This document shows, piece by piece, positions 2,630-42,359 of a stretch of 64,000 nucleotides of DNA. The notes beneath the pieces are model-generated. The model was not told where the DNA came from, searched no databases, and saw nothing but the letters and a program-made list of their open reading frames with translations. Origin of the DNA: Candidatus Nealsonbacteria bacterium (lineage in GTDB: Bacteria; Patescibacteriota; Minisyncoccia; Minisyncoccales; PWPS01); assembly GCA_003551425.1 (NCBI GenBank), contig PUMP01000059.1:1-64000 (forward strand), in the 5' to 3' direction. Position numbers and translations under genes: made by a program. Numbering within the stretch: position 1 is the first letter of the stretch; each line of letters starts with the position of its first letter.

Positions 2630-2735
2630 CACTAAATATTTAGGAAAATCCTTGACATTATTTCTTTTGTATGATAAAGTGTAACTACCCTTCATAAAGA
2701 GAGGGGTTTTTTATTTTAAAGTACAAATAAAAAAT

Positions 2736-19562: not shown

Positions 19563-19563
19563 T

Positions 19564-20193
19564 TTACATAATAAGTTCTTCCGGTATTTCCGGGAAGTAC
19601 CCCTTTTCCGCTTGTTTTGGATGGTGCATGCTCCAAAGCAACTCTATGAGCTCGGAAGAAGTAAGCGGAACGGAGTGAAGGCTGCACCTGCGAAGCCCCA
19701 AAGCCACAAACTCCATTCTTTGGTATAACTGATCTCTTGATCTTTTAAAAACTTCTTCGGAAAGAGTTCCTTTGCGTGATGCTACAACGTCACGGGTTGA
19801 AGTCTTTGTTTCACCGACACTGTAAGGGACAACAACGAAGAAATTCTTGCTATAGACATCTTCTTTTCTTACAAACTCTTCCAAAAAGTCTATATATCCC
19901 GCTGTTTGGTGCCGTAAAAGATCATTAGTCTGTTCTTTCTTGAGCTCTTTAATTTTATCTATATATCCTCTGATATTGGTTCTCCTGGACTGAACCACAA
20001 TTTGTAAATAAAAATCCAAAGAGTTTAAAAAGGCTTGGAAGTGATAGATGATTGCCTTTTGCTCTTCTTCGGACTTTAAGACGAAGTTTATCGATGAAAT
20101 CATTAAGATTCCCCGTAACTGATTGTTTTTTAGAACAATCAACCCTTCTCTTATTTGCTTTATTTCAAGTAACTCTTGTGTGCTTAAAGGCAT
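19564..20193 (-). CDS. Probable N-terminal domain of VirB4 encoded as a separate ORF (stop TAA, 1 nt, then ATG of the ATPase ORF)
   Basis: Its 209 aa plus the 605 aa of the next ORF equal the ~800 aa of a full VirB4. 'INFVLKSEEEQKAIIYHFQAFLNSLDFYLQIVVQSRR' resembles the CagE_TrbE_VirB N-terminal region. The junction reads ATTATGTAAAATGTCA. Confidence 0.4.
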   Translation of the reverse strand: MPLSTQELLEIKQIREGLIVLKNNQLRGILMISSINFVLKSEEEQKAIIYHFQAFLNSLDFYLQIVVQSRRTNIRGYIDKIKELKKEQTNDLLRHQTAGYIDFLEEFVRKEDVYSKNFFVVVPYSVGETKTSTRDVVASRKGTLSEEVFKRSRDQLYQRMEFVALGLRRCSLHSVPLTSSELIELLWSMHHPKQAEKGYFPEIPEELIM

Positions 20194-29972: not shown

Positions 29973-30813
29973 TTTTTAGAACTTTGACAAGCAGCTTCCA
30001 TTCTTTTATGCTTAATTTTTCCGCCCTGCTTTTAGGGTCAACACCACTTTCTTTGATCAAAGAATAAAGCTCTTCTTTTTTTATTAAGTTTAGCCCCTTT
30101 TTGCCTTTAATGTCAAACTGGAAGTTAGTTAAGATTTGTTTTCGGGGATGAGAGAATCCCTTTTTAACTATTCGGAAAAAATCTTTTTTGAATTCTTCGT
30201 CAAAGATTTCTTCTTTTGGCGTGATTTTTATAATTGACGACTCTACGGAAGGGGACGGCCAAAAAGAGTTTCTGGAAACATGGGAAACGATCTCGGGCCT
30301 GGCATAGAACTGTACGGAAACGGACAAAACGCTCATATTGGGAGGCTTGGCAATTATTCTTTCCGCGACTTCTCTTTGAACGGTAAGTACAAGAGAGCTA
30401 GGCGGACATCTTTCTTCTAAAAACTTTCTTATTACGGGAGAAGTAATGTAATAGGGAAGATTTGCTACAACCTTGTAGTCTCTGAAAGGGACGGGAAAAC
30501 TTAAAATATCTTCGTGAATTATCTTTATGTTTTCTTTGTTTTTTATGAGATCACGGAGTACCGACACCAGTCTCCTGTCTTTTTCTACCGCTGTAACGCG
30601 CTTTGCTTTTTTTGCCAAGGGGAGAGTAAGAGTTCCGATGCCGGGACCGACCTCAACAACTTCATCTTTCTTTGAAAGATCGGCGCTGTCGCATATTTTC
30701 TTTACGACACTTTTGTCTATGACAAAGTTTTGTCCCAGTGATTTTTTCGGATTTACAAAATAAGAATCAAGAACTTTTTTTAGGTTTTCTTTGTTTGTTA
30801 GGTCTATTTCCAT
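29962..30813 (-). CDS. rsmA: 16S rRNA (adenine1518/1519-N6)-dimethyltransferase
   Basis: 'LGQNFVIDKSVVKKI', SAM-binding 'VEVGPGIGTLT' and 'NLPYYITSP'. Confidence 0.9.
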   Translation of the reverse strand: MEIDLTNKENLKKVLDSYFVNPKKSLGQNFVIDKSVVKKICDSADLSKKDEVVEVGPGIGTLTLPLAKKAKRVTAVEKDRRLVSVLRDLIKNKENIKIIHEDILSFPVPFRDYKVVANLPYYITSPVIRKFLEERCPPSSLVLTVQREVAERIIAKPPNMSVLSVSVQFYARPEIVSHVSRNSFWPSPSVESSIIKITPKEEIFDEEFKKDFFRIVKKGFSHPRKQILTNFQFDIKGKKGLNLIKKEELYSLIKESGVDPKSRAEKLSIKEWKLLVKVLKNVI

Positions 30814-30890: not shown

Positions 30891-31892
30891 TTGAAGAGGA
30901 GGGCTTCGGGTCAAAGTGGCTTTACGATTCCAAAAAGGAGAAATAAAATTTTCCTTGTTTTTGTTTTATCTTTATTTATAGCTGCTTGCCTTACAAATAC
31001 GGAAGATTTCTTTGGCAAAGAAGAACCCAAAGAGGAAAGCTTTGTATCGGACTTTGATTTTTTTCTTTCCTCCGAAAGAGAAGATAGCTCCGAATCAATT
31101 ATATTTACCGACAAGAACACCCTTCTCTCCGGGTCGGCTCCTTACTTTGTGAGCTCGAGGGTGATGGGGGGCGCCGGAGTAAGCCAAAGAAACAATATTA
31201 TTTCTTATAAGGTGGAGGAGGGGGATACTCTTTCAAGTGTTGCCGATAAGTTTGATATTAGCAAAGACACGATACGGTGGGCTAATGACATAAACGGCCA
31301 AGTAAAACCCGGAGAAGAGTTGGTTATTCTTCCCGTAACGGGAGTTATGTATTATGTAGAGTCCGGAGATACTTTATCGGAGGTTGCCGAAATGCATAAA
31401 GCGGAAAGAGAAGAGATAAAGGAGTTCAATAATCTATATGTAGAGGACATTTATCCCGGTGACTTGATAATTATTCCGGGAGGGGAGCGTCCCGCTATTC
31501 CTGAACCTGCGCCTCCGGCACCTTCTACGCAGTTCGTTGCTCCCGCAATAGGGATTGTTACTCAAGGGCCACACCACTATAATGCGATAGACATTGCTAA
31601 TAATTGTGGTAGCCCTATCTATGCGGTACAATCGGGGGTAGTAGTGGAAAGAGCCTATAACACTTGGCCGGCAGGTCACTTCTTAAAAATTGATCATGGA
31701 AATGTGGTGGCAATGTATGCCCACATGCAAAATATGTATGTTGGAGTAGGCGACAGAGTCCATCAAGGACAGCAAGTTGGAACGATGGGGACTACAGGAC
31801 TTTCAACCGGTTGTCATATTCACTTTGATATTCTTTCAAGAAGAATAAGGAATCCTTTTGCTCACATTCCGGTTGGAGGACAGGTAAGATAA
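30891..31892 (+). CDS. Membrane-anchored LysM(x2)-M23 peptidase
   Basis: N-terminal TM. Two LysM motifs ('YKVEEGDTLSSVADKF', 'YYVESGDTLSEVAEMH'). M23 motifs 'HYNAIDIA...GSPIYAVQSGVV' and 'MYAHMQN..V.VGDRVHQGQQVGTMGTTGLSTGCHIHFDI'. Confidence 0.8.
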   Translation: MKRRASGQSGFTIPKRRNKIFLVFVLSLFIAACLTNTEDFFGKEEPKEESFVSDFDFFLSSEREDSSESIIFTDKNTLLSGSAPYFVSSRVMGGAGVSQRNNIISYKVEEGDTLSSVADKFDISKDTIRWANDINGQVKPGEELVILPVTGVMYYVESGDTLSEVAEMHKAEREEIKEFNNLYVEDIYPGDLIIIPGGERPAIPEPAPPAPSTQFVAPAIGIVTQGPHHYNAIDIANNCGSPIYAVQSGVVVERAYNTWPAGHFLKIDHGNVVAMYAHMQNMYVGVGDRVHQGQQVGTMGTTGLSTGCHIHFDILSRRIRNPFAHIPVGGQVR

Positions 31893-31894
31893 TC

Positions 31895-32254
31895 TTAAGC
31901 GCAATTAGTACAAGTCTTAGTTTCCGGGACTAAAGAAAGTTTTTCGTAAGGAATCTCTTCTCCGCATTTTTCACAGAGACCGTAATTGCCTTCTTTCATC
32001 TTTTCCAATGCACGGTTAATGTTTTTTAGCTTTATCTCTAAAGCATGTTCCACTTTAAGGAGAGCGGAGTATTCCTCCACTTCATCGGCCTCTTCCTCCA
32101 TCCCGCTTTCATTGGGATTAAAGTCAGGGTAAACGGTCTTCCAGTCTCCTTTCGGCTTGTCGCTCTCTTTTGCGAATCTTTGTAGTGTGCCTTGGAGAGA
32201 CTCTTTGTTTTCTTCCAGTTTCTTTTTTAATGTTTCGATTTGTTCTTTATTCAT
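31895..32254 (-). CDS. DksA/TraR-family C4 zinc-finger protein
   Basis: An N-terminal coiled coil and a C-terminal 'CEKCGEEIPYEKLSLVPETKTCTNCA' (C-x2-C-x17-C-x2-C) motif. Confidence 0.6.
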   Translation of the reverse strand: MNKEQIETLKKKLEENKESLQGTLQRFAKESDKPKGDWKTVYPDFNPNESGMEEEADEVEEYSALLKVEHALEIKLKNINRALEKMKEGNYGLCEKCGEEIPYEKLSLVPETKTCTNCA

Positions 32255-32256: not shown

Positions 32257-33570
32257 TTATAAACGATCAATTATTGCCTTAGTACTTTCAAGCGAAGTGG
32301 AAAATACAATTTTTCTTCCCACTATAGCGTAATAAAATCCTATGCCCTCATGAGGAGACTCTGTGCTTATGACGTTATCTTTTTCTATCCATCCCTCCGT
32401 GTTATTTACCAGTATACTGTAACGATCTCCTTCTTCTCTTAGTTTCTTGTATTTTTCACCTTCTTCTGTTCTTCCTGTTTCGATTAAGTTTTGCGCTCCG
32501 GAGTATATAGGAGTGTTTCTCATAACGTTAAGAAGTTCTTCTTCCGGTGGAGTGCTGCGGTAACGGATAATAATGTTTTCATAAGTAGTGCTATTTAATT
32601 CTTCGTCAGTAGTAGGAACCTCTATCTCTAAGAAAGAGAATAGTCTTTGAAAATCTCTTTCAATAGATTCCTCCCAAGGCCTCATTAATCCCCAGCTTAA
32701 ATCTTTGTCTTCATTCGTTTCTACCACGAATCCAAGCCTGCTCTCCTTTTCTTTTGTGTATAAAAGAAGAGTAAAGTCTTCTTCTATTATATCAAAGAAA
32801 TCTTGAGGGTGACTGACACGAAAAATTTGAAAGAAATCTTTTAAATTAGAAATACGTGGCTCTTCCTCTCTTTGGTCTTCTATAATTATACGTACCATTT
32901 CTCCTCTTTCCTCTTCTTCTATTGCCTTGCGTAAAAGCATAATATATTCATCATTACTTGTGATCGGAATTCTGATAATATCATCTTTTTCTCTGTCTAT
33001 TCTTATAAGGGAATCGGGGGCACGAGGGGTAATTATCTCTTTTACTTTTTCTACCGGCTCAACTTCCGGAGGAGAAGTTAAAAATAAGGCTCTGTAAAGA
33101 AAAGCAATAGAAAAAATAAAGATAGAAACAATAACCAAGGCCACAAGTAAGCGGACCCATAATTTTGATTTTTCAGTAGGTTTCTGCGGGGGTTGCAAGT
33201 GTTCTTCTTCTATCTCTTCCTCATCTTCCTCTTCTATATCTTCTTCCTCTGGTGAGGATTCTGAAAGAGAGGATTCTAACGCTTCGGAAGAAGGGGTCGC
33301 AAAGCCACCTTCTTTACTCATTTCTTTCTGCTCAACTCTTTCTAAGAACTTTCTTCTTCTTTCTTCCTCCTTGTTTATTCTGGCAGAGGATTCTTCTTGT
33401 GCATTTTGCTTTATTATTTCATCTAAAATTTGCGAAGGACCTGCTCCCCGATATTCCGCTTTTAGAAAAAAATCTTCTTTCTCTGGATTTTGTCTTCTTA
33501 TCTCAGATAAGATCTCTTTGTCGGAAGCCCCTTTTGCTCGGGCTTTTTTAATAGAGCTTACAATGTTCAT
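32257..33570 (-). CDS. Hypothetical single-pass membrane protein (acidic N-terminal cytoplasmic region, TM near aa 135-157, ~280 aa outside)
   Basis: ORF with a clear TM segment 'LWVRLLVALVIVSIFIFSIAFL'. No recognisable catalytic motif. Confidence 0.4.
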   Translation of the reverse strand: MNIVSSIKKARAKGASDKEILSEIRRQNPEKEDFFLKAEYRGAGPSQILDEIIKQNAQEESSARINKEEERRRKFLERVEQKEMSKEGGFATPSSEALESSLSESSPEEEDIEEEDEEEIEEEHLQPPQKPTEKSKLWVRLLVALVIVSIFIFSIAFLYRALFLTSPPEVEPVEKVKEIITPRAPDSLIRIDREKDDIIRIPITSNDEYIMLLRKAIEEEERGEMVRIIIEDQREEEPRISNLKDFFQIFRVSHPQDFFDIIEEDFTLLLYTKEKESRLGFVVETNEDKDLSWGLMRPWEESIERDFQRLFSFLEIEVPTTDEELNSTTYENIIIRYRSTPPEEELLNVMRNTPIYSGAQNLIETGRTEEGEKYKKLREEGDRYSILVNNTEGWIEKDNVISTESPHEGIGFYYAIVGRKIVFSTSLESTKAIIDRL

Positions 33571-33575: not shown

Positions 33576-36455
33576 TTAGAACTTAAAATCTAAATCAGAG
33601 ATGTCCGGAGTTTCTTCCTTTTTCTTTGGAGAAGGGGGAGTCTCTTCTTCCTCCTCTTCCTCTTCTTCCTCTTCCTCTTCTTCATCTTCCCCCTCCTCTT
33701 CAGGCTCTTCTATTTCTTCCTCGCTTTCTTTTGCTTTTTCGTCATTTTCTTCTAATTTTTTTCTGTCCAGTTCTTCTCTATATTTATCTTCTTCCTCCTC
33801 TTCATCTTCTTCCTCCTCTTCTTCTGCCTCTTCCTCTTCTATGTCTTCATCATCATCTAGCACTTCCTCTTCTTCCGGCTCTTCTTCTGTTATTATCGAC
33901 TCTTCTTCCTCTTCGCCCTTTACGGACTGCTCCAGCTCTCCTATCTCTTCTCGAAGCTCCGCTTCTCTTTTTTGAATAAGGTCGAATCCTTGTTTTTCTT
34001 TTTCAATTTCCGCCAATCTATTCTCTAACTTCCATATCTCCTTTTCTTTATCGCGCTTTTCTTCTTCTACCTCCCATCTTTTTTCTTCTACTTTCTTTTT
34101 TTCTCCGGGATCTTCGATGTATTGCTCTTCTTCCTCTATGTCATCCATGCGACTTTTAATTTCTTCTTTGCTCTTCTTCATCTCTTCAAGAGATTCTTTT
34201 ATTTGAGTTTCTTCATCAATTAATTTCTCGCTTTTTTCTTCTATTCTGCCCCTAATTGTTTGTACTCTTTTCAGTTCTTTCTTCTTTTGTTTTGCTTTCT
34301 CTGTCTTCTCTATATTTTCCTCTTTTACCGCAAGAGAACTTTCTTTCTTCTTTAACCTTTCTTCTTCGTTTAGTATTTGCTGGTAATGCAGTTCGGAAGC
34401 GTACAATTGTTCTTCAATCTTTTTAACTCTTTTTTGCAAGCCCCACTTTTCTTTTTCAATATCTCTTCTTTTTTCTTCTATCATCCATCTTTCTTTTTCT
34501 TTTTCCCTCCTTTCTTCTGTAGTTTTGGCTGACGATTCCTCTTTCTCAATCTTCTTTTTCCTGTCTTCTACCTCTTTCTCCCTTTCGAGCGTAATATTTA
34601 ATTTTTCTTGAAGATGATCTTTCTTCTCTTTCGTTTTAGCTGTCTTTAAATCAAGACCCTTTCTTTCCTCTTTGATAGAACTTATTTTTTCTTTTATTTT
34701 TGCTCTTTCCAGTGAGACTTTTACCCTTTTTTCTTTCTGAGACAACTCTTTCCACCTTTCATGAACTCTTTTTTCTTTATTGGAGATTCTCCACTTTCTT
34801 GTGTGTGTTTGGCGGCTTCTTTTTTTTATTTCATTTAATCTTTCCTTGATGTCCCATATCTTTCTTTTAGCCTCTCTTATTTCTTCTTCTACCTCCCATC
34901 TGTTCTTTTCAATCTCACTTTTTTCCTCCGGGTTGTATGCTATTTTTTCTTTTGACTCGATATCATCCCTCTTTCTTTCAATATATCTTTCTTCTTTATA
35001 AGCTTCTTCTAGCTTTCTTTCGCTCACTTTTTCTTTCTGTGAAAGCTTATCTGCCTCAATCTCTAAGAGCTTTCTTTCTTCTCGCAAGTCGTAGAATTGG
35101 TCACTTAACTTTTCTTTTAATAGTTCTATCTTCTCCAAGTGAAGTTCTTTTTTTTGTACCGAGGAAAGAGTTTCATCTTGTAAGCCAATAGCGATCTCCC
35201 TTTCTTTTCTCTTAATATTTCTTTCTCTTTCTCTTTCTTCTTTTCTTTTTTGCAACTCTTCTTCTTTTTTTCTTATAAGCTTCTCTTGTTTATTGATTTT
35301 CTCTAACCCTTTTTCGGTGTCACTTAGCTCTTTTTCCATGTCCCATCTCTCTTTCTCTATGTTTCTTCTTTTTTCTTCTATACTCCACCCTCTTTCGGTT
35401 AATTCCTTTTCTTCGCCCGTCCCCTTTGCAATGCTCTCCTCTTTTTTAATACTGCTCTTTTTACTCTCTATCTCTTTTTCTTTCTCTTTTATTTCTTTTA
35501 ATTTATCTGAAAGCTCTATTCTTCTTGCAAGAAGATTCTCTTTCTCTTCTTTAAGAGATTCTTTTTTTTCGGTTATTTTTTCTTCGAGATCACCTGCCGG
35601 TATTTTTTCTTCTTTCTCTAGAGGAGTCTTTGTTTCTTCCCTTGCTTTTACTTCTCTTATCTCGTCTTCTTTTTCTTGCAGCTTTTCAATCTCTTCTCCA
35701 AGCTCTTCCAATCGATTGGTTGCTTTTTCAATCTTTTCTCTTGCAGCGGCAACCTCTTCTTCTTTTTGCCACCTTTCTTCTTCTATTTTTTTTCTTTCGT
35801 CTTCTATCTTCCACCTTTCCTCCTTAAGTTTCTTTTTTTTGGAAAAGTCTTTTTCTATTTCTTCTTTTTTTTCCAGGTCTCTTTCTTTTTTTTCAATTGT
35901 TTTTTCTTTCTCTTTTATTTCTCTTAGCCTTTCTTTTATTTTTTTCTCCTCGCTAACCAATGATTTTTTTTCTTTAAGAAGAAGATTCCCTTCCTTTTCT
36001 TTCTTCTTTATTTTTTCTTCAATTTGTTCTCCCTCTGTTTCTTTTTGGTCTTTTTGATCTTTTTCAAGTTTTTGCTCTTCTTCTTTCTTCTTTTTCTTAA
36101 GCTCTTCTCTCTCTTGCCTTAAAGAGCTTATTTGTTTTTCTACTTCTTCAACCTTACTTTCCCAGTTCCAACGCTCTTTTTCGATGTCTTTTCTTTTGTC
36201 TTCAACTCTCCATCTTTCTTCGCTTATTTTCTTTTTTTCTTTCTCGTCTTTTGTTTTTTCTCCCTGCTCTTCTATCTCTTTTTCTTTATCCTCTATCTCT
36301 CTTTCTTTTTTGGTTATAAGGTTGAGGCTTTTTTTAATTTGCTCTTTCTTTTCCGTAGCGCTGGCAATGTTAACTTCTAGCTCTTCAAGCTTTTTTTCCA
36401 GCTCTTTTAATTTATTGTTTTTTTCTTCCAAGTTATTATTGTTTGAATTTATCAT
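33576..36455 (-). CDS. Giant (959 aa) E/K-rich coiled-coil repeat protein with a poly-acidic C-terminal tail
   Basis: There is no TM or signal. The motif 'E[EK]RW.[IV]E[DE][KE]R[RK].IEKE.W..E' occurs at least 6 times (for example EERWRVEDKRKDIEKERWNWE, ERWKIEDERKKIEEERWQKE, KERWMIEEKRRDIEKEKWGLQ). The tail is 'EEEEEEEEEEEEEETPPSPKKKEE'. Confidence 0.6.
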   Translation of the reverse strand: MINSNNNNLEEKNNKLKELEKKLEELEVNIASATEKKEQIKKSLNLITKKEREIEDKEKEIEEQGEKTKDEKEKKKISEERWRVEDKRKDIEKERWNWESKVEEVEKQISSLRQEREELKKKKKEEEQKLEKDQKDQKETEGEQIEEKIKKKEKEGNLLLKEKKSLVSEEKKIKERLREIKEKEKTIEKKERDLEKKEEIEKDFSKKKKLKEERWKIEDERKKIEEERWQKEEEVAAAREKIEKATNRLEELGEEIEKLQEKEDEIREVKAREETKTPLEKEEKIPAGDLEEKITEKKESLKEEKENLLARRIELSDKLKEIKEKEKEIESKKSSIKKEESIAKGTGEEKELTERGWSIEEKRRNIEKERWDMEKELSDTEKGLEKINKQEKLIRKKEEELQKRKEERERERNIKRKEREIAIGLQDETLSSVQKKELHLEKIELLKEKLSDQFYDLREERKLLEIEADKLSQKEKVSERKLEEAYKEERYIERKRDDIESKEKIAYNPEEKSEIEKNRWEVEEEIREAKRKIWDIKERLNEIKKRSRQTHTRKWRISNKEKRVHERWKELSQKEKRVKVSLERAKIKEKISSIKEERKGLDLKTAKTKEKKDHLQEKLNITLEREKEVEDRKKKIEKEESSAKTTEERREKEKERWMIEEKRRDIEKEKWGLQKRVKKIEEQLYASELHYQQILNEEERLKKKESSLAVKEENIEKTEKAKQKKKELKRVQTIRGRIEEKSEKLIDEETQIKESLEEMKKSKEEIKSRMDDIEEEEQYIEDPGEKKKVEEKRWEVEEEKRDKEKEIWKLENRLAEIEKEKQGFDLIQKREAELREEIGELEQSVKGEEEEESIITEEEPEEEEVLDDDEDIEEEEAEEEEEEDEEEEEDKYREELDRKKLEENDEKAKESEEEIEEPEEEGEDEEEEEEEEEEEEEETPPSPKKKEETPDISDLDFKF

Positions 36456-36467
36456 GAGCCAAAAACC

Positions 36468-38726
36468 TTAAGAAATTACTTTTTGAAGTTCGTTTGTTAT
36501 TTTTTTTGCAATTTCCGCAAACCTTTCTTCAAGAACTTCACTGTCTTTCTCTTTCTCCATCATTGTTTCTGTCTTCTTTTTTTCTTTCTCCAGAGAGATT
36601 AACTGTTCCTTGTCTTTAAAGCTTTCTTTCTCTTTGCTTAATTTATCTTCTTCTTCCGATATTTGCTTGTACTGTGATTCTATTTTTTTCTGAAGGTTTT
36701 CCATTTCTCTTATCTTTTCCTGGAGCTTCCATTTTAAGCTCTCTATTTCTCTTCTCTTGTCTTCTAGCTGCCATCTCTTCTTTGTCTCATCCTTTCTTTC
36801 TTTTGAGTTAATATCCATTGTCTCTATTTTATCTTCCATCCATCTTATTTGTTCTTCAACCTCGCTCTCATTTTTCATTATATCTCTTAATTTTTCTTCA
36901 CTTTCTTTCTTCCTCTCTTGTAGTTGCCTTTTTTTCTTATCAAGAATTTCTCTTTTTTTCTTAAGCTCTTCTTCCCTTTCTCTTATCTTCTCCCTTCTTC
37001 CCTCCATCTCCATCCACTCCAAAAGCTTAGAGGCAAGATCTTTTTCTTTATCGTGCATATTTTCTTTTTCTTCCATCAATCTATCATATCTTTTCTCCAT
37101 CTCTTTCCTTTCTTTTGTAACATTGTTTAATTTTTCTTGGATGTCCAAAGATTCTTTTTCCACGGCTCTTCTTTTTTCTCCTATTTCCCACCTTTTCTTT
37201 TCCATCTCTCTTACTTCTTGAGGGTCCTTTGCTGTTCTTTCTCTTTCTTCGATATCTTCTTTCTCTTTCTTCATCTGTTTTTCTTTTTCATAAACTTCGT
37301 TGAGCTCTCCTTTGATCTCTCTTTCTTTTTCCAAGGGAGCCTTTAAATCTCTCTTAATCTCTTTCTTTTTTTCTATCGTCTCACAGATAGCGCCTAAAAG
37401 ATCTATTCTGTTTATGACTATCTGTTTTCTGTATCGGGGGTCTCTTAAAAGAAACTCTTTTCTTTTAAGGGAAATGAAGCGCTTTTTCTCTTCAATCTGC
37501 TCTTTCTCTTTTGCTCTTTTTTCCTTTTCTTTGTTTAGGGCATCTTCTGCGGCGGTGGTTCTTTCTTGAAAAGCTTTTTCATTTTGCCGTATCTCTTTTT
37601 TAAGTGACTCTATTTTTTCTTTTAGAGAAGTACTTTTGCCTTCAATTATCTTTATTTTCTCTTTTGTTTTTTTAATTTTTTCCTGCCACTCCCAAGCCTC
37701 TTCTTTGACTTGTTTCTTTTTCTCTTCGATCCTCCATCTTTCACTTTCAAGTTCCTCTAGCTCTTTGCTATCCTCTGTTTTCCCCGTTCTTTCTTTTATG
37801 TCTAAAAATCTTTCCTTTATGTTTTTATCTACTTGGATAATTTTCTTTAACTTGTCTTTTGCTCTTTTTTCACGAGCTTGAAGCAGTCCTATTATTTGTT
37901 CGTAAAAATTATTTTTCTTTTCTAGAAATCTTATTTTGCTTTGAGGTATGAGGATAGAAAGCTTAAGACCCAAAGCCTCTCTTTCCACCTTTATTATCTC
38001 GGCTTTTCTCTTTGCTCTTTCTTCTTTTATATCACAAAGGAGTTGCCTTAACTCAAGAGATTGTATTCCTTTTTTAATTTGAATTATTTTTTCTTCTATT
38101 TCCCAGCTTATTCTACTCGCTTCTCTTTCTTTTCTGCTTATCTCTTCTTCTTTTCTTTCAAGGTCTTCCTGTCTTTCAGGGCTTTGTGCCGCCACTTTCA
38201 TCTCTTTTATCTTTTCTTTTTGCGTCTTTATCTTTGTTTCCTTTGATTTTACAACGCCTTTTTTCTCTTCCAGCTTTATAATGTTCTTTTTTGCAAAGTT
38301 ATTCTTTAGCTCGAGAGATTTTCTTTCTTTTAACACCTCTTCCAGTAGCTGGTTGTTTCTTTCTTGCTCTTGTCTTTTTTCTTCAATTTTTCTTTTGGTT
38401 GCTTCTATTTTATCCTTTACGGACTCTTTTATCCCTTGTCTTGTTTTTTCAATATTTTTTATCCACTCTTCTTTTTCTTCCTTTTCAATCTTTCTTATTT
38501 TATTTTCTTCCTCCAGTCTTGCTTGCCTTTTTTCTTCCTCTTTTCTTTTTTCTTCTTCTCTTATTATTTCTTCTTCTTTCTTTTTGTCTTCTTCACTTTT
38601 CTTTTGCGTTCCTTTCTGCGGGGGTTTGGATTGTTGAGCCACGTCTTTTTTTCCTCCTGTCTTGGCAAGTAAAAGGTCCTTTTTCATCGTCCTAATCTCT
38701 TGTGTGGTGTCTTTATTTTCTTCCAT
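36468..38726 (-). CDS. Giant (752 aa) E/K-rich coiled-coil repeat protein, paralogue of the 33576-36455 protein
   Basis: Same composition and the same W-containing motif ('SERWRIEEKKKQVKEEAWEWQEKI', 'KKRWEIGEKRRAVEKE', 'KKRWQLEDKRREIESLKWKLQEKI'). It lies directly downstream of pnp on the same strand. Confidence 0.6.
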   Translation of the reverse strand: MEENKDTTQEIRTMKKDLLLAKTGGKKDVAQQSKPPQKGTQKKSEEDKKKEEEIIREEEKRKEEEKRQARLEEENKIRKIEKEEKEEWIKNIEKTRQGIKESVKDKIEATKRKIEEKRQEQERNNQLLEEVLKERKSLELKNNFAKKNIIKLEEKKGVVKSKETKIKTQKEKIKEMKVAAQSPERQEDLERKEEEISRKEREASRISWEIEEKIIQIKKGIQSLELRQLLCDIKEERAKRKAEIIKVEREALGLKLSILIPQSKIRFLEKKNNFYEQIIGLLQAREKRAKDKLKKIIQVDKNIKERFLDIKERTGKTEDSKELEELESERWRIEEKKKQVKEEAWEWQEKIKKTKEKIKIIEGKSTSLKEKIESLKKEIRQNEKAFQERTTAAEDALNKEKEKRAKEKEQIEEKKRFISLKRKEFLLRDPRYRKQIVINRIDLLGAICETIEKKKEIKRDLKAPLEKEREIKGELNEVYEKEKQMKKEKEDIEERERTAKDPQEVREMEKKRWEIGEKRRAVEKESLDIQEKLNNVTKERKEMEKRYDRLMEEKENMHDKEKDLASKLLEWMEMEGRREKIREREEELKKKREILDKKKRQLQERKKESEEKLRDIMKNESEVEEQIRWMEDKIETMDINSKERKDETKKRWQLEDKRREIESLKWKLQEKIREMENLQKKIESQYKQISEEEDKLSKEKESFKDKEQLISLEKEKKKTETMMEKEKDSEVLEERFAEIAKKITNELQKVIS

Positions 38727-38734
38727 GGAAAGAA

Positions 38735-40828
38735 TTATTTTTTATCTTCTTTTGCTTTTTTAATGGAAAGGCTTATTTTCCCACTTTCTTCTTTTTTGAT
38801 TACTTTAACGGGGACTACTTGTCCTTTTTCAAGTTCGCTTTCTACTGATTCTATTCGGTGTGGAGCAATTTCTGAGATGTGGCAAAGCCCTTCGTGTCCG
38901 GGGAGAATCTCGATTACAGCACCGAAATCAAATATTTTAATCACCTTTCCTTTGAAGACTTCTCCTTCCTTGACTTCTCGGGTGAGATCTTTGATTCGAG
39001 AAACAGCTTTTTCAATAGCTTCTTCGTTTTCTGAGGTTATGGAGATGAGGCCGGAGTCTTCGATATCAATGGCAACGCCCGTTTCTTCCATGATCTCGTT
39101 TATCGTTTTTCCCTTGGGTCCAATTATGACACCTATTTTCTCTGAATCAACCTTAATGGTCGCGATGCGGGGAGCGTAAGGGGAAAGTTCTTCTCTCGGC
39201 TCTTTGATGGTCTTTCCCATTTCTTCCAGAAGATAAAGACGAGTCTCTTTGCCTCTTTCTAAGGCCTCTTTAATCATCTCTTTTGTAATGCCTTCTATTT
39301 TTACGTCCATCTGAATAGCCGTTACGCCGTCTTTTGTTCCCGCTACTTTAAAATCCATGTCTCCGTAGTGATCTTCGGGACCTTGAATATCGGTAAGTAT
39401 TTTGTACTCTCCTTCTTCATTTGAAACAAGACCGATAGAGATTCCCGCCACGGGCTTTTTAATGGGAACTCCGGCGTCCATAAGGGCAAGAACGGTGCTA
39501 CACACGGAAGCCATGGAAGTGGATCCGTTAGAAGAGAGTATCTCCGAAACGGAACGTATAGTGTAGGGAAACTCTTCTATATCGGGGATAAGAGGAAGAA
39601 TCGCTTTTTCCGCAAGCATGCCATGGCCGATATCTCTTCTTCCCGGTCCACGAACGGGCTTTACTTCTCCTACCGAGTAGGGAGGGAAGTTATAGTGATG
39701 CATAAAGCGTTTTTTCCCGGAAAGCTCCATCTCTTCGATTAGTTGCTGCTCTCCCGGAGCTCCTAGGGTTATAATGGAAAGTGACCTGGTTTTTCCTCTT
39801 CTAAAGATTCCCGAGCCGTGAGTACGGGGAAGAATAGCAACGGCGGTGCCTATCTCTCGCACCTCGTTCATTTTTCTTGCATCGGGACGATCTTCTTCTT
39901 TTAATATCTTCTCTCTTATTATTTCTTCTATCTTTTCGTCCATATAGGAGAGGGCGTAATCTTTTTCTTTGTCCTCGTAATTTTCTTTTATAAAAAGGGA
40001 GAGGTCTTTTTTAAGGGATTTTATTTTATCTCCTCTTCCTTCTTTCTTCGCAAAGACATCGCTCATTCCTTCCTTAACTTTTTCCGCGACCACTTTCTTT
40101 ACTTCTTCGTCTTGGAAAAGAGGGGGAGGCATAATCTTTTCTTTACCTTTTTCTTTCCTTATTTTCTCTTGAAAAGAGCAGATCTGTTTTATTGGATCTT
40201 CTGCAAACTGAAAAGCATCTTCTATCGCTTTTTCTTCTGTCTCTTCAAAGAAACCCTCTATCATATTGGTTATGAGAACTCCTTCTTTATTGATAAAGCC
40301 ACTTATTATTATATCTATCTCTCCTTCGTCTCTTTCCAAGTAAGTGGGATTTAAGATGTGATTTTCTTTTTTACCCACTCTTATCGATCCAAGGGGTCCG
40401 TTCCAGGGAATATCGGATACTTCGAGAGCAACGGAAGCAGCGATCATTCCCAAAACACCCGGATCGTTTTCTTCATCCCAAGAAAGGCAAGTTACAATTA
40501 CTTGTACTTCTTTCTTTAGTTCTTTGGGAAACTTGGGGCGAATAGCACGATCGATCATGCGAGAGATTAAAGTTGCTCTGTCGGAAGGCTTTCCCTCTCT
40601 TCTTGTATAGCGAGGACCGCTTATCTTCCCGGCGGCGTAAAATTTTTCCTCGTAGCTTACCGAAAGCGGAAAGAAATCTTTTTCCGTGTCTTCTTCGGCA
40701 AGAGTTACGGTGGCGAAGACGACCGTATCTCCGTAACGGACCATAGCCTCACCGTTTGCTTGTTCTGCTAAGCTGCTTAAAGAGATAATCAAATTACGAT
40801 TTCCCAGTGGTAGATTGTATTCATTCAT
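38735..40828 (-). CDS. pnp: Polyribonucleotide nucleotidyltransferase (PNPase)
   Basis: Two RNase PH domains plus KH ('IGPKGKTINEI') and S1 ('GEVFKGKVIKIFDFGAVIEI') domains, ~700 aa, downstream of rpsO. Confidence 0.9.
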   Translation of the reverse strand: MNEYNLPLGNRNLIISLSSLAEQANGEAMVRYGDTVVFATVTLAEEDTEKDFFPLSVSYEEKFYAAGKISGPRYTRREGKPSDRATLISRMIDRAIRPKFPKELKKEVQVIVTCLSWDEENDPGVLGMIAASVALEVSDIPWNGPLGSIRVGKKENHILNPTYLERDEGEIDIIISGFINKEGVLITNMIEGFFEETEEKAIEDAFQFAEDPIKQICSFQEKIRKEKGKEKIMPPPLFQDEEVKKVVAEKVKEGMSDVFAKKEGRGDKIKSLKKDLSLFIKENYEDKEKDYALSYMDEKIEEIIREKILKEEDRPDARKMNEVREIGTAVAILPRTHGSGIFRRGKTRSLSIITLGAPGEQQLIEEMELSGKKRFMHHYNFPPYSVGEVKPVRGPGRRDIGHGMLAEKAILPLIPDIEEFPYTIRSVSEILSSNGSTSMASVCSTVLALMDAGVPIKKPVAGISIGLVSNEEGEYKILTDIQGPEDHYGDMDFKVAGTKDGVTAIQMDVKIEGITKEMIKEALERGKETRLYLLEEMGKTIKEPREELSPYAPRIATIKVDSEKIGVIIGPKGKTINEIMEETGVAIDIEDSGLISITSENEEAIEKAVSRIKDLTREVKEGEVFKGKVIKIFDFGAVIEILPGHEGLCHISEIAPHRIESVESELEKGQVVPVKVIKKEESGKISLSIKKAKEDKK

Positions 40829-41336
40829 TTCCTTTTTTCTTTAATAAAAATTTTTTTGTACTCTTTTCTAAATCTATGAATTCGTCCGCTACCTCTTTCA
40901 GTTTTGCGGAAGCGGACCTTTCAAAGGCCATTATTTCCACTCTTTTTCCTTGATTTTTCAGGTATTCTACGAGGGGAATAAAATCACCATCACCCGTGAC
41001 AAGAACGATAGAGTCTACTGCAGGGGACAAGCGAACGGCGTCTATTACAATTCCAACGTCCCAGTCTCCTTTTTTGAATCCTCCGTAGAATTCTTGTAAG
41101 TCTTTTATCCTTGTTTCTATTCCTAAATTAGTGAGAGCTTCGAAAAAAGCCTTTTCTTCGCCGGTCTTGGTCCTTATTACATAAGCAAAAGAGCGAATAA
41201 GGTTTCTTTTGCTTACTGCCTTCTCCACTATTGCGCTAAAATCAACACGTGAGTTATAGAGATTTTTTGCCGAGTGATAAAGGTTTTGCACATCGATGAA
41301 AATTGCGACGCGCTGACCTTTGTGTTTAATAAGCAT
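40821..41336 (-). CDS. NYN/LabA-like (DUF88) domain protein inserted between rpsO and pnp
   Basis: 'VAIFIDVQNLYHSAK' (the Asp of the NYN/PIN-like fold) ... 'IVLVTGDGDFIPLVEYLKNQGKRVEI', the typical LabA/NYN signature. It overlaps pnp by 8 nt. Confidence 0.7.
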   Translation of the reverse strand: MLIKHKGQRVAIFIDVQNLYHSAKNLYNSRVDFSAIVEKAVSKRNLIRSFAYVIRTKTGEEKAFFEALTNLGIETRIKDLQEFYGGFKKGDWDVGIVIDAVRLSPAVDSIVLVTGDGDFIPLVEYLKNQGKRVEIMAFERSASAKLKEVADEFIDLEKSTKKFLLKKKGNE

Positions 41337-41337
41337 G

Positions 41338-41592
41338 TTATTTTTTTAAGCCCAGTTTTTGAGTGAGCTTATTGTATCTTTCTTCGTCTTTTTTACGCAG
41401 ATAAGAAAGAAGCTTTCTCCTTCTATTAACGGCTTTCAAAAGCCCTTGCTTGGAGTGCTGATCTTTCGGGTTCTCCTTAAAATGAGGAAAGAGTTTTTTT
41501 ATCTTTGCCGAAAGTAAAGCGATTTGAGCTTCCGAACTGCCGGTATCTTTGTATTCTTTTAATATTTCTTCTTTTTCTTCTTTGGTAAGCAT
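41338..41592 (-). CDS. rpsO: 30S ribosomal protein S15
   Basis: '[57 protein letters not shown]' is the uS15 consensus. Confidence 0.9.
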
Positions 41593-41619
41593 ATTTTTAA
41601 GATTAATTTATCTCTCTAG

Positions 41620-41692
<73 letters not shown>

Positions 41693-41709: not shown

Positions 41710-42222
41710 TTAATCTTCTTCTATCGTACAATCTATTTTATAAATCCCCTCATCCCACCAGTCTTCAAACCCCCAGCTGTCTTCTTCCGTCATTCCCATA
41801 CCTTCAAGAATAAGCCCTACTGTGACCCATGCGGTGTAAGCGATAAGAACGCCGGCGATAGCTACAAGGATAACAGTTCTTCCTTTTTTATATCCCTCGG
41901 GATTGGCAGAGTTCGTATAAAGCGTGATTCCACCGAAGATTATAAGGATAATGGCGGCTGCGGGAATCATTCTTGTCATAAAGAAATCGACTACATTGCC
42001 GAAAATTACAAACAAGTGGCATAACTGACAGTCCGGCAAATGATCTTCGGGTCCGCAAGGAACAAGCCCGACACTGACATCATAACATGTACTGTCATGC
42101 CAATGATATCCTGCCTCTTCACACTCTTCTTTGGTGTTAAGGCCCTCAACCTCGTAATTTGCCAAGGCAAGAAGGGGAAGAGCCATGAAAAGAAGAACAA
42201 CTATCAATATCCTTTTTAGCAT
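41710..42222 (-). CDS. Small secreted Cys-rich protein with the same C-terminal two-helix pilin-like membrane module found in the M23 giant protein
   Basis: Signal peptide 'MLKRILIVVLLFMALPLLALA'. 'VGLVPCGPEDHLPDCQLCHLFVIFGNVVDFFMTRMIPAAAIILIIFGGITLY...ILVAIAGVLIAYTAWVTVGLILEGMGM' aligns with the C-terminus of the 26874-29972 protein (VGLVPCG identical, with conserved C, H and helix spacing). Confidence 0.55.
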   Translation of the reverse strand: MLKRILIVVLLFMALPLLALANYEVEGLNTKEECEEAGYHWHDSTCYDVSVGLVPCGPEDHLPDCQLCHLFVIFGNVVDFFMTRMIPAAAIILIIFGGITLYTNSANPEGYKKGRTVILVAIAGVLIAYTAWVTVGLILEGMGMTEEDSWGFEDWWDEGIYKIDCTIEED

Positions 42223-42285
42223 TTGGTAATTATAATCTTTTTTAACAAAAAATCAAAGGGCGCTTTTTCTAAAGGCTTAACTTTG

Positions 42286-42359
42286 TACCCCGGGAGGGAT
42301 TCGAACCCCCAACCTGCGGTTCCGAAGACCGACGCTCTATCCAGTTGAGCTACCGGGGC
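42286..42359 (-). tRNA. tRNA-Arg (TCG)
   Basis: On the reverse complement: acceptor gccccgg/ccggggt, D-arm tagctcaactggatagagc, anticodon stem tcggt/accgc with loop ctTCGga, T-arm ggggg-ttcgaat-ccctc. Confidence 0.75.

What the first reader, a model, noticed from the sequence alone, without database searches (positions are those of the whole stretch)
33576..38726. Two adjacent giant E/K-rich coiled-coil paralogues with a recurring Trp-containing ~25-aa motif, downstream of pnp
The 959-aa and 752-aa proteins are about 60% Glu and Lys. They are predicted to be almost entirely coiled-coil and lack TM or signal sequences. They share a repeated motif, roughly E[EK][KR]W.[IVL]E[DE][KE]R[RK].[IV]E[KS]E.W...[EQ]K[IL], with about 10 copies. 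The 959-aa protein ends in a poly-Glu tail. The antisense strand is a long T/C-rich low-complexity tract, which explains the many spurious + strand ORFs. The function is unknown (cytoskeletal scaffold, nucleoid or ribosome associated?). They are co-oriented with, and possibly co-transcribed with, rpsO-NYN-pnp.
Basis: seen in the sequence. Interest (0 to 1): 0.65.

Follow-up and report, generated by a model that had tools for sequence, protein, structure and literature searches.

The report
Split, amplified coiled-coil arm of envelope protein
The two giant Glu/Lys-rich genes are real: they are the detached, five-fold amplified cytoplasmic arm of a previously undescribed Patescibacteria membrane protein whose outer part sits in the cell wall, and the next gene downstream encodes the missing membrane and cell-wall part.

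Summary
ORFs B (752 aa) and A (959 aa) are intact, charged, all-helical paralogues. They are built from a ~137-aa unit with a W-x13-W motif: six units in A, three strong plus one degenerate in B.

They are not stand-alone proteins. About 480 clusters among 1.84 billion representatives carry the unit, and nearly all have exactly two units. In the canonical form one polypeptide carries an N-terminal IRTMKKDI motif, two units, a TM helix and an ectodomain, often with PG_binding_1, GH3 or amidase domains. It sits at the same locus, pnp-X-dksA/traR zinc finger.

In the window this gene is split three ways:
- B has the N-terminal motif plus units.
- A has units, an acidic linker and a conserved C-terminal peptide, DISDLDFKF.
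- C (32257-33570) has a new 57-aa N-terminal domain (ND), the TM helix and the ectodomain.

The split recurs in related genomes. In 12 of 12 loci where the flank could be read (about nine independent), an ND gene directly follows a unit protein ending in ..SDxDxxF.

AlphaFold models the units as long antiparallel helical hairpins (pLDDT 92).

The best reading is a non-covalently reassembled sub-membrane scaffold tied to the cell wall. No Pfam or NCBIfam family matched, and no paper was found. Function is inferred, not shown.

The parts
36468..38726 (-). Gene B (752 aa): the N-terminal piece of the split protein. It has the family's N-terminal motif, a charged region and 3 strong plus 1 degenerate W-hairpin units. 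It has no TM helix.
   Evidence: ORF; unit hits; the L005 orthologue is 54% identical with the same layout.
38664..38696 (-). N-terminal family motif IRTMKKDLLLA (B residues 11-21). It forms a cationic amphipathic helix.
   Evidence: A relaxed form of the motif, [IVLFM][RKQ]T[ML]..D[ILVMF], occurs at residues ~9-36 in nearly all of the 67 family proteins that match it. The hydrophobic moment (muH) of the consensus core is 0.77, against a 95th percentile of 0.57 for 11-mers of A.
38007..38294 (-). B unit 1 (degenerate; residues 145-240; a single Trp at 208).
   Evidence: Profile hit with i-E 7e-4, 14 bits.
37602..37886 (-). B unit 2 (residues 281-375; W331/W345).
37056..37340 (-). B unit 3 (residues 463-557; W513, with the second Trp replaced by Leu).
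36639..36926 (-). B unit 4 (residues 601-696; W652/W666).
33576..36455 (-). Gene A (959 aa): the middle piece. It has six W-hairpin units, an acidic disordered linker and a conserved C-terminal peptide. It has no TM helix.
   Evidence: ORF; units; orthologues in L005 (59% identity) and L006 (37% identity) have units at the same positions.
36078..36362 (-). A unit 1 (residues 32-126; W82/W96).
35679..35963 (-). A unit 2 (residues 165-259; W215/W229).
35253..35537 (-). A unit 3 (residues 307-401; W357/W371).
34764..35048 (-). A unit 4 (residues 470-564; W520/W534).
34353..34637 (-). A unit 5 (residues 607-701; W657/W671). Modelled together with unit 6.
   Evidence: AlphaFold model of residues 587-860: pLDDT 92.4, helices 2-55, 60-193 and 197-270.
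33933..34226 (-). A unit 6 (residues 744-841; W794/W808).
33606..33920 (-). Acidic low-complexity linker of A (residues 846-950). About 62% of the last 114 residues are D or E.
   Evidence: Its length and sequence vary between orthologues while its flanks are conserved.
33579..33605 (-). C-terminal peptide of A, PDISDLDFKF-COOH. This is the proposed docking peptide.
   Evidence: It is conserved in L005 (NISDLDFKF) and L006 (LSDLDFGF) despite a variable linker. It also ends the unit proteins upstream of ND genes in L011 and in 8 metagenomic loci.
32257..33570 (-). Gene C (437 aa): the membrane piece. It has ND, the juxtamembrane motif, a TM helix and the family ectodomain. It lies outside the finding's coordinates but belongs to the same system.
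   Evidence: BLASTP against the TM and ectodomain part of the fused homologue P0001 gives 9e-20. The ectodomain profile scores 171 bits. The L005 orthologue is 63% identical.
33397..33570 (-). ND: a 57-aa N-terminal domain of C (SIKKARAKGASDKEILSEIRRQNPEKEDFF...ILDEIIKQN). This is the proposed receptor for the tail of A.
   Evidence: Among the six-frame ORFs of the loci then held (L001-L012) and the window, it occurs only in C-type proteins of split loci; the later metagenome scan found it in L013-L024. It is absent from all 159 family proteins collected. A metagenome scan with ND found it always next to tail-bearing unit proteins wherever the flank was present.
33316..33375 (-). Cytoplasmic juxtamembrane motif NKEEERRRKFLERVEQKE, shared with fused homologues (for example KKEEEKRRKLLERLQEKKKE in P0001).
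   Evidence: Read from the sequences. It also appears in the consensus of alignment A3.
33076..33168 (-). Single TM helix of C (residues ~135-165), preceded by K/R-rich sequence.
   Evidence: Hydropathy maximum 2.89. It aligns with the TM helix of P0001.
32260..33075 (-). Extracytoplasmic alpha/beta domain of C (residues 166-437), with a lineage-specific insertion at about residues 340-400.
31895..32254 (-). DksA/TraR-type C4 zinc-finger gene. It is the conserved downstream neighbour of the system.
   Evidence: Pfam PF01258, 1.8e-10. It holds the same position in L001, L003, L005, L009 and L011.
38735..41592 (-). Upstream genes of the same transcription unit: rpsO (41338..41592), NYN (40821..41336) and pnp (38735..40828).
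   Evidence: The gap from pnp to B is 8 nt.

Best explanation
A and B are the detached, amplified cytoplasmic arm of a Patescibacteria-specific bitopic envelope protein.

**Canonical form.** One polypeptide carries, in order:
- a short cationic amphipathic N-terminal motif (IRTMKKDIARL);
- a charged spacer;
- exactly two ~137-aa 'W-hairpin' units;
- a juxtamembrane motif;
- one TM helix;
- an extracytoplasmic alpha/beta domain, which often continues into peptidoglycan-binding or peptidoglycan-cleaving domains.

**The unit.** Each unit is a long antiparallel helical hairpin with a conserved tip. An Ile seam is flanked by near-invariant Glu on the descending helix. On the ascending helix a repeating R-[W/R]-x-I-E heptad places the two Trp residues on the flank of the seam.

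**In this lineage.** The gene underwent fission into three genes (B, A, C), and the unit count rose from 2 to about 10.

**Proposed reassembly (inferred).**
- C is anchored by its TM helix.
- A is tethered to C. Its conserved C-terminal peptide (DISDLDFKF), at the end of a ~105-aa acidic linker, docks on the new 57-aa N-terminal domain (ND) of C.
- B reaches the membrane or the complex through the retained N-terminal amphipathic motif and through hairpin-hairpin contacts.

**Proposed function (inferred).** The assembly is a sub-membrane helical scaffold mechanically or organisationally coupled to the cell wall through the ectodomain.

**What is shown.** The genes, the repeats, the family, the orthology of the locus, the split, and the co-occurrence of the tail and ND.

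**What is inferred.** The docking, the membrane binding of B, and the scaffold function.
For: **Family and architecture**
- Homologues of A are single proteins with two units, a TM helix and a domain homologous to C.
- An exhaustive profile search finds 479 proteins (E <= 1e-3) among 1.84e9 representatives.
- 153 of 159 collected homologues have exactly two units spaced 130-139 aa. None has more than three. 104 have a TM helix after the units.
- Of 53 full-length members, 18 carry PG_binding_1, 6 GH3, 2 PG_binding_3 and 1 Amidase_2.
- Five other representative proteins (each standing for a 50%-identity cluster) fuse the two units to PilM.

**Orthology of the locus**
- Fused two-unit genes sit between pnp and the dksA/traR zinc-finger gene in L001 and L003. 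This is exactly where B-A-C sit here.

**The split is real and old**
- L005 (pnp 80% identical) has the same three genes of 747, 966 and 443 aa, with the same unit positions.
- L006 and six metagenomic loci have 12-13 units in two ORFs followed by ND genes.
- An independent assembly reproduces the window sequence.

**B and C carry the family's two ends**
- B has the N-terminal motif at residue 11.
- C has the juxtamembrane motif, the TM helix and the ectodomain.

**Tail and ND**
- The tail of A is conserved across a variable linker.
- ND is absent from all 159 homologues.
- In the window, L005, L006, L011 and all 8 ND loci with upstream sequence, the ORF directly upstream of the ND gene is a unit protein ending in ..SD[LI]D[FL][KSG]F.
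- In L009, a split locus without the tail, the downstream TM protein lacks ND.

**Structure**
- The AlphaFold model of A units 5-6 has pLDDT 92.4, with turns exactly at the A-x-[DN]-P-x-E sites.
- The column analysis of 223 units shows the a/d seam and the charged tip.
Against: - No experiment or expression data supports any step.
- Docking of the tail on ND rests on co-occurrence in about nine independent loci.
- One tail-bearing unit protein (P0115, locus L012) has no ND gene within 5 kb and is not next to pnp.
- The N-terminal motif has invariant-looking Thr and Asp. This suggests a specific protein ligand rather than plain membrane binding.
- The higher-order packing of 10 hairpins is unknown (pTM 0.60).
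- The tightly conserved neighbourhood with rpsO-NYN-pnp is not explained by an envelope role.
Confidence: 0.6

Rival explanations
1. RNA-metabolism scaffold. The W-hairpin proteins organise PNPase, the NYN nuclease and perhaps the DksA-like factor at the membrane. This would resemble membrane-tethered degradosome organisers such as the RNase E C-terminal scaffold or RNase Y. The ectodomain would be only an anchor.
For: - The order rpsO-NYN-pnp-X-ZnF is kept in the window, L001, L003, L005, L006, L009 and L011, across pnp identities down to ~57-68%.
- The pnp-B gap is 8 nt and no terminator was found.
Against: - Every domain fused to the units is an envelope domain: peptidoglycan binding, GH3, amidase or PilM. 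None is an RNA-related domain.
- Unit proteins also occur away from pnp (L002, L012).
- rpsO-pnp is a near-universal operon, so the adjacency may simply be inherited.
Confidence: 0.12
2. Autonomous soluble cytoskeletal or nucleoid-associated filament. A and B polymerise on their own in the cytoplasm, independently of C.
For: - A and B have no TM helix.
- About 45 of 159 family representatives are unit-only proteins that end just after the second unit.
Against: - In three unit-only loci examined (L009, L011 and its near-duplicate L024), the next gene encodes the TM and ectodomain part; the fourth, L012, is followed by an MscS-channel gene instead.
- The tail and ND co-occur.
- B keeps the N-terminal motif of the membrane-anchored form.
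Confidence: 0.12
3. Decaying remnants. A broken, low-complexity pseudogene region that happens to keep long open frames.
For: - B and A are in the same frame, separated by one TAA and 12 nt.
- In L019 the two ORFs are separated by a single in-frame stop.
- The composition is extreme.
Against: - The same gene boundaries, unit positions and invariant residues persist at 54-63% amino-acid identity in L005, and further in L006 and six metagenomic loci.
- New modules (the tail and ND) were gained with the split.
- There are no internal stops in 5.1 kb.
Confidence: 0.03
4. Secreted or surface fibrillar coiled-coil proteins, of the M-protein or S-layer-associated kind.
For: Long charged helical repeats are common in Gram-positive surface fibrils. 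The family is linked to the cell wall.
Against: - There is no signal peptide, TM helix or LPXTG in A or B.
- In fused homologues the units lie N-terminal to the single TM helix. The Cys-rich, peptidoglycan-binding and hydrolase domains lie C-terminal to it. This places the units in the cytoplasm.
Confidence: 0.03

Closest known systems
EzrA (Firmicutes; bitopic membrane protein with cytoplasmic spectrin-like helical repeats, one kind of repeat with conserved Trp). From my own knowledge.
   Same: It is a single-pass membrane protein whose large cytoplasmic part is a series of ~100-140-aa antiparallel helical repeats. It acts under the membrane in concert with cell-wall synthesis. Conserved Trp residues in helical repeats are a spectrin hallmark.
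   Different: - No Pfam EzrA or spectrin hit.
- The TM helix is C-terminal to the repeats here and N-terminal in EzrA.
- The repeats are modelled as two-helix hairpins with a 137-aa period, not three-helix bundles of ~106 aa.
- This family has an ectodomain; EzrA has none.
FtsZ C-terminal linker plus conserved C-terminal peptide, which docks on the membrane anchors FtsA, ZipA, SepF and EzrA. From my own knowledge.
   Same: A ends in a variable, disordered linker followed by a short conserved terminal peptide. The proposed role is tethering a cytoplasmic structural protein to a membrane-anchored partner.
   Different: The peptide sequence is unrelated. The partner (ND) is a new 57-aa domain. 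The body of the protein is a hairpin array, not a tubulin-like GTPase. The interaction is untested.
Docking-domain pairs of split polyketide and non-ribosomal peptide megasynthases. From my own knowledge.
   Same: A C-terminal element on one polypeptide and an N-terminal element on the next gene's product appear where a multi-module protein is divided. This would restore order and connectivity without a peptide bond. That is the pattern seen for the tail and ND.
   Different: The sequences and biology are entirely different. Here one partner is a ~9-residue peptide and the other a small helical domain on a membrane protein.
ESCRT-III / PspA / Vipp1 helical-hairpin polymers
   Different: Only one hairpin aligns (~100-160 residues, 8-14% identity). 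No Pfam Snf7 or PspA_IM30 hit. The hairpins here are serially repeated and, in the canonical form, covalently joined to a TM protein.
Methyl-accepting chemotaxis protein cytoplasmic domain
   Different: No MCPsignal Pfam hit. The tip sequence is different, the hairpins lie N-terminal to the TM helix, and there are two or more hairpins in series.

Membership tests
Undescribed 'W-hairpin' bitopic envelope protein family of Patescibacteria (defined here) | ~137-aa unit: helix, A-x-[DN]-P-x-E turn, then E-K-E-R-W-x-I-E-E-K-R-R-x-I-E-K-x-R-W helix, with near-invariant E40/E44/E51/E54 and R70/W71/R77/E81/R84/W85. | tested here: met
   A has 6 units at 58-79 bits. B has 3 units at 59-75 bits and 1 at 14 bits.
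Undescribed 'W-hairpin' bitopic envelope protein family of Patescibacteria (defined here) | Exactly two units per protein, spaced 130-139 aa. | tested here: not met
   153 of 159 homologues have two units. The window has 6 and 3+1. This is the feature that makes the locus a variant. It is shared with L005, L006, L015-L017, L019 and L021.
Undescribed 'W-hairpin' bitopic envelope protein family of Patescibacteria (defined here) | N-terminal [IV][RK]TM[KQR]KD[IL] motif. | tested here: met
   B residues 11-18, IRTMKKDL. It is absent from A and C.
Undescribed 'W-hairpin' bitopic envelope protein family of Patescibacteria (defined here) | A single TM helix after the units, followed by the conserved alpha/beta ectodomain (FTLF.YSQ..GNRLGF ... 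DLGICY ... FTSSW.S). | tested here: met
   It is not in A or B but is in the adjacent gene C: BLASTP 9e-20 to P0001, profile 171 bits. The feature is therefore met at the level of the locus, not of the two ORFs.
Undescribed 'W-hairpin' bitopic envelope protein family of Patescibacteria (defined here) | Position between pnp and a dksA/traR zinc-finger gene. | tested here: met
   The window, and L001, L003, L005, L009 and L011.
EzrA / spectrin-like repeat proteins | Pfam EzrA or Spectrin profile match; three-helix repeat of ~100-106 aa; N-terminal TM helix. | tested here: not met
   No Pfam family at E <= 0.01. The model shows two-helix hairpins with a 134-aa connecting helix. The TM helix is C-terminal in the family.
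ESCRT-III / PspA-IM30 | Snf7 or PspA_IM30 profile match; hairpin plus helices alpha3-alpha5 in one ~220-aa protomer. | tested here: not met
Single alpha-helix (SAH, E/K-rich) domains | Charged helix without a hydrophobic seam and without turns. | tested here: not met
   The units show a regular a/d seam (3-4 spacing) and conserved turns and are modelled as hairpins. The charged N-terminal spacer of B (residues ~40-140) was not examined and could be of this kind.
SMC / Rad50 / RecN-type coiled-coil ATPases | Walker A and B head domains at both ends of an antiparallel coiled coil. | tested here: not met
   No Pfam or NCBIfam domain of any kind in A or B.
Gram-positive surface coiled-coil proteins (M-protein type) | Signal peptide and LPXTG or another wall anchor. 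| tested here: not met
   No hydrophobic N-terminus, TM helix or LPXTG.
Mog1/PsbP/DcrB/LpqN/PknH-sensor-like extracytoplasmic domains (for gene C) | An alpha/beta sandwich fold match well above noise. | tested here: inconclusive

The most novel reading that the evidence does not exclude
The W-hairpin unit is the brick of a previously unrecognised bacterial membrane skeleton specific to ultra-small Patescibacteria.
- It forms ~20-nm helical hairpins tied through a TM protein to the cell wall, and in some lineages to the type IV pilus platform.
- Its length is tuned by changing the unit number: 2, about 10, or 13.
- Its polypeptides are ordered by a dedicated peptide-domain docking code, the ..SDLDFKF tail on ND.
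- The conserved Arg/Trp/Glu hairpin tips would be the lattice contacts or the binding site for an unknown cytoplasmic partner.
Probability: 0.2. Interest if true: 0.8.

Novelty: new variant of a known kind. Interest (0 to 1): 0.55.

Why it matters
- **Few known envelope organisers.** To my knowledge, Patescibacteria lack many of the known cell-shape and division accessory proteins, and almost nothing is known about how their envelope is organised. This work defines a lineage-specific family linked to the cell wall, with no Pfam or NCBIfam model, and gives it a precise repeat definition, a predicted structure and a conserved genomic address.
- **A natural experiment.** The window shows the same protein as one chain with two units, as two chains, or as three to four chains with 10-13 units. 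The appearance of a tail peptide and a small receptor domain coincides with the split.
- **A directly testable prediction.** The tail should bind ND. This can be tested with recombinant fragments, without culturing the organism.
- **A practical warning.** These genes should not be dismissed as low-complexity ORFs, and the three or four genes should be annotated as one system.

Tried and rejected
- **Genome scans with alignments.** The single-protein scan of genome contigs returned only one locus, L003.
- **Exact look-ups.** The sequences of A and B are not in the protein collection. The window's source was reached through its pnp instead.
- **Taxon names.** Cluster look-ups gave no taxon names. 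Assignment to Patescibacteria rests on named pnp hits at 57-59% identity.
- **Unit subtypes.** I tried to classify the window's units into the canonical first-unit and second-unit subtypes. Differences were only 0-10 bits, against ~30 bits for canonical units. The mode of amplification (pairs or singles) is therefore unresolved.
- **Sequence search of solved structures.** The unit profile found only GCN4-adaptor fusion constructs and tektin at E >= 5e-4, which is coiled-coil noise. The ectodomain profile found nothing credible.
- **Fold searches.**
  - Foldseek with the ectodomain gave nothing significant.
  - The afdb50 library was unavailable.
- **Promoter and terminator scan.** Counts were at shuffle level and no minus-strand terminator lies inside the operon.
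- **Literature.** Four full-text searches on this question found no paper describing this family, motif or architecture.
- **Stop-codon read-through at the B/A junction.** The junction is in frame in the window, L005, L006/L021 and L019 but not in L015-L017. That is not distinguishable from chance, so I did not adopt this reading.
- **Alternative genetic code.** I considered and rejected this. Both stops are TAA, and all neighbouring genes read normally in table 11.

Full report
**1. What is in the sequence**

On the minus strand, seven genes run head to tail:
- rpsO, 41338..41592
- a NYN-domain gene, 40821..41336
- pnp, 38735..40828
- B, 36468..38726 (752 aa)
- A, 33576..36455 (959 aa)
- C, 32257..33570 (437 aa)
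- a dksA/traR-type zinc-finger gene, 31895..32254

The gaps are 8 nt (pnp-B), 12 nt (B-A), 5 nt (A-C) and 2 nt (C-ZnF), and both internal stops are TAA. The consensus scan finds no terminator-like site on the minus strand inside this run.

A Logan assembly of run SRR490150 matches window 33654..41665 with no mismatch, including the B/A junction. The split is therefore not an artefact of one assembly.

E+K is 49% in A and 42% in B, and all four charged residues together make 60% and 54%. The rest of the description holds:
- There is no TM segment, no signal-like N-terminus and no LPXTG.
- The plus strand is strongly T/C-rich.
- Its ORFs are S/F/L-rich mirror images of the real genes.

**2. The repeat**

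Trp residues in A fall in six pairs exactly 14 residues apart. Shuffling gives 0.22 such pairs on average and never more than 4 in 20,000 trials.

It consists of a helix, a turn with consensus A-x-[DN]-P-x-E, and a second helix that begins E-K-E-R-W-x-I-E-E-K-R-R-x-I-E-K-x-R-W. A profile of the unit finds six copies in A and three strong plus one degenerate copy in B, spaced 133-182 aa. Nothing else in the 64-kb window matches.

The units are only 23-39% identical to each other. There is no long-period repeat in the DNA, so the array is old.

A and B are true paralogues: 34% identity over two consecutive units, E = 3e-20 after composition correction.

**3. The family**

A word-indexed search with A returned 14 proteins. 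On inspection each has two such units followed by a TM helix, a conserved domain and often peptidoglycan-related domains. That conserved domain is homologous to gene C of the window (BLASTP 9e-20, covering the TM helix and ~200 residues beyond).

An exhaustive HMMER search of 1.84 billion representative proteins with the unit profile found only 479 proteins at E <= 1e-3, and 299 at E <= 1e-10. Among the 159 sequences collected:
- 153 have exactly two units spaced 130-139 aa. None has more than three.
- 104 have a TM helix after the units.
- 83 match the ectodomain profile.

A short motif, consensus [FL][IL]xxxxIRTMKKDIARL, lies within the first ~35 residues of most full-length members and at residue 11 of B.

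Pfam on 53 full-length members gives PG_binding_1 in 18, GH3 in 6, DUF7107 (Cys-rich) in 7, PG_binding_3 in 2 and Amidase_2 in 1. Five other representatives carry the two units in front of a PilM domain and a TM helix, and one of these lies next to a pilin gene.

Neither the unit nor the ectodomain matches any Pfam or NCBIfam model. Four full-text literature searches found no description of the family.

The units lie N-terminal to the only TM helix and there is no signal peptide. The Cys-rich, peptidoglycan-binding and hydrolase domains lie C-terminal to the helix. The units must therefore be cytoplasmic and the C-terminal part external. This is an inference from topology rules.

**4. The locus is orthologous to the fused gene**

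In L001 (GCA_964498455.1) and L003 (a MAG in GTDB), a single fused two-unit gene lies between pnp and the dksA/traR zinc-finger gene. In L003 the NYN gene and a small TM protein lie upstream, as in the window.

The best-named relatives of the window's pnp are Parcubacteria, Patescibacteria and Pacebacteria entries at 57-59% identity. I therefore treat the organism as a Patescibacterium. This is an inference.

**5. The split and the amplification are lineage features**

The closest genome found is L005 (GCA_003557645.1, pnp 80% identical). It has the same three genes:
- 747 aa, with the N-terminal motif and three units;
- 966 aa, with six units at the same positions;
- 443 aa, with the TM helix and the ectodomain.

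A zinc-finger gene follows. Amino-acid identity to the window is 54% for B, 59% for A and 63% for C, and the gene boundaries fall at homologous positions.

L006 (pnp 68% identical) has 1412-aa and 1041-aa genes with 7 and 6 units, followed by two membrane-protein genes. Six metagenomic loci show the same 12-13-unit layout.

The split also occurs without amplification. In L009 and L011 a two-unit protein is followed by a separate TM-ectodomain protein, again between pnp and the zinc-finger gene. About 45 of the 159 representatives end within ~30 residues of the second unit.

The window therefore represents one end of a series: one chain with two units, two chains with two units, and three or four chains with 10-13 units.

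**6. A tail and a receptor domain appear together with the split**

Alignment of the A orthologues shows that the acidic region (residues ~846-950) varies in length and sequence. The last residues are conserved: DISDLDFKF, NISDLDFKF and LSDLDFGF.

C and its orthologues begin with a 57-aa domain, which I call ND. No ND is found in any of the 159 family proteins.

In L011 the two-unit protein ends in DISDIDLKF, and the next gene starts with ND, followed by the TM helix and the ectodomain.

A metagenome scan with ND returned 12 loci. In all 8 that include upstream sequence, the ORF immediately upstream of the ND gene is a unit protein ending in ..SD[LI]D[FL][KSG]F.

With the window, L005, L006 and L011, this makes 12 of 12 loci, or about nine independent ones after removing near-duplicates. 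In contrast, the split locus L009 has neither the tail nor ND. One tail-bearing protein, P0115 in L012, has no ND gene within 5 kb.

I infer that the tail docks on ND and so replaces the peptide bond lost at fission. The arrangement works like the FtsZ C-terminal peptide or the docking domains of split megasynthases. That comparison comes from my own knowledge and is not a tested membership.

**7. Structure of the unit**

AlphaFold2 on A residues 587-860 (units 5-6), with 32 homologous two-unit segments, gave mean pLDDT 92.4 and pTM 0.60. It predicts three helices (2-55, 60-193 and 197-270), broken only at the two conserved turns.

- an ATPase gamma subunit;
- prefoldin;
- ESCRT-III proteins;
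- the p85 inter-SH2 domain;
- HP0958 and CT398;
- Tsr.

Column statistics over 223 units show a normal 3-4 hydrophobic seam far from the turn. Within ~25 residues of the turn the pattern is specialised:
- On the first helix, Ile recurs every seventh residue, with E40, E44, E51 and E54 at 87-96%.
- On the second helix, three heptads read R-[W/R]-x-I-E-x-x. R70, R77 and R84 are at 92-99%, W71 and W85 at up to 88% and 99% (the hydrophobic-residue fraction of those columns), and E67, E74 and E81 at 92-97%.

With Ile as the seam, the two Trp residues sit on the flank of the seam rather than inside it. This is my reading of the heptad register. I could not inspect the model's coordinates to check it. 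Such a position suits contact with a third helix or a partner. How ten hairpins pack is not determined.

**8. The ectodomain**

AlphaFold2 on C residues 166-437 gave pLDDT 81 and pTM 0.74, an alpha/beta fold. A lineage-specific insertion is of low confidence.

I regard the fold assignment as inconclusive. The cell-wall connection rests on the domain fusions in homologues. C itself carries no peptidoglycan-binding domain.

**9. Most likely mechanism, and its rivals**

The best-supported account is given in the Best explanation section. In brief:
- C is the membrane anchor and wall-facing part.
- A hangs from C through the tail and ND.
- B joins through the retained N-terminal amphipathic motif and through hairpin contacts. 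The consensus core of that motif has a hydrophobic moment of 0.77 and net charge +3.
- The product is an enlarged sub-membrane helical scaffold.

My confidence differs by step:

| Step | Confidence |
|---|---|
| Genes and repeat are real | ~0.95 |
| Orthology to the fused family, and the split | ~0.9 |
| Tail docks on ND | ~0.55 |
| N-terminal motif binds the membrane | ~0.35 |
| Scaffold function coupled to the wall | ~0.4 |

The main rival is a role in RNA metabolism, suggested by the very stable neighbourhood with rpsO, NYN and pnp. I cannot exclude it. No fusion partner supports it, and unit proteins occur elsewhere in some genomes. Autonomous filament, pseudogene and surface-fibril readings are each contradicted by specific results (see the rival explanations).

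**10. Novelty and verdict**

The proteins fail the tests for EzrA/spectrin, ESCRT-III/PspA, SAH domains, SMC-type proteins, MCPs and surface fibrils. They belong to a family that the libraries and papers searched here do not describe.

In kind it is a membrane-associated helical-repeat scaffold, which is a known category. I therefore rate it a new variant of a known kind. Three unusual features are documented: a sharply defined Arg/Trp/Glu hairpin tip, repeated gene fission with unit amplification from 2 to 10-13, and a co-occurring tail and ND pair.

Interest is moderate to good at 0.55. The finding is solid and yields a directly testable prediction, but the function is still inferred.

Noticed in passing
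window 36456..36470 (B/A junction); L019 ~2726..2728; L005 14355..14378; L006 15425..15517: B and A are in the same reading frame, separated by one TAA and four sense codons. The two ORFs are also in frame in L005, L006/L021 and L019, where a single stop separates them. They are not in frame in L015-L017. This may be a trace of fission by a nonsense mutation, or it may allow occasional read-through. Five of eight in frame is not clearly more than chance.
   Followed up: partly
L006 18719..19408 and 19418..20088; L014-L018, L020: The 12-13-unit lineage has two consecutive ND genes. The first encodes ND, a Ser/Pro-rich linker and a TM helix, and nothing else (180-229 aa). The second encodes ND, the TM helix and the ectodomain. 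The window and L005 have only the second kind. It is unknown which protein, if any, docks on the extra ND.
   Followed up: partly
window 41710..42222 (-), with tRNAs at 41620..41692 and 42286..42359 (-): A 170-aa Cys-containing membrane protein lies upstream of rpsO. Its counterparts in L005-L008 carry T4SS_pilin or TrbC Pfam hits, weak in most of them. It is conserved at this position in L003 and L005-L008. The best promoter-like site of the region (10/12) lies just upstream, at 42256..42229.
   Followed up: no
window 40821..40828: The NYN-domain gene and pnp overlap by 8 nt. A NYN gene between rpsO and pnp is conserved in every related locus examined (L003-L009, L011).
   Followed up: no
window 32380..32560 (C residues ~340-400): The ectodomain of C carries an insertion of about 60 aa, shared with L005 and absent from most family members. 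It is modelled with low confidence (pLDDT 57-65).
   Followed up: no
L001 2409..3111: Upstream of the fused homologue P0001, a separate 105-aa ORF carries the N-terminal IRTMKKDI motif, followed by a 384-nt gap. A member of the same 90% cluster (P0281, 1064 aa) is longer. This looks like a frameshift or a mis-called start in that assembly rather than a true split.
   Followed up: partly
L012 5001..7619: P0115 is a two-unit protein that ends in EISDSDVKF. It is not next to pnp and is followed 9 nt later by an MscS-type mechanosensitive channel gene. No ND gene lies within 5 kb. This is the one exception to the tail and ND rule.
   Followed up: partly
window 30891..31892 (+) and 29962..30813 (-): Next to the operon lie a LysM plus M23 peptidase gene and ksgA/rsmA. 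The same two genes follow the zinc-finger gene in L005, so synteny with the nearest relative extends beyond the system.
   Followed up: no
L013-L023 (contig names SL_3KL_010_SED..., Ga0207421_...) and L024 (Hain-H43): Eleven of the twelve ND-bearing loci come from just two metagenome sample series, judging by their contig names. The expanded and split form may therefore be confined to a narrow habitat or clade.
   Followed up: no
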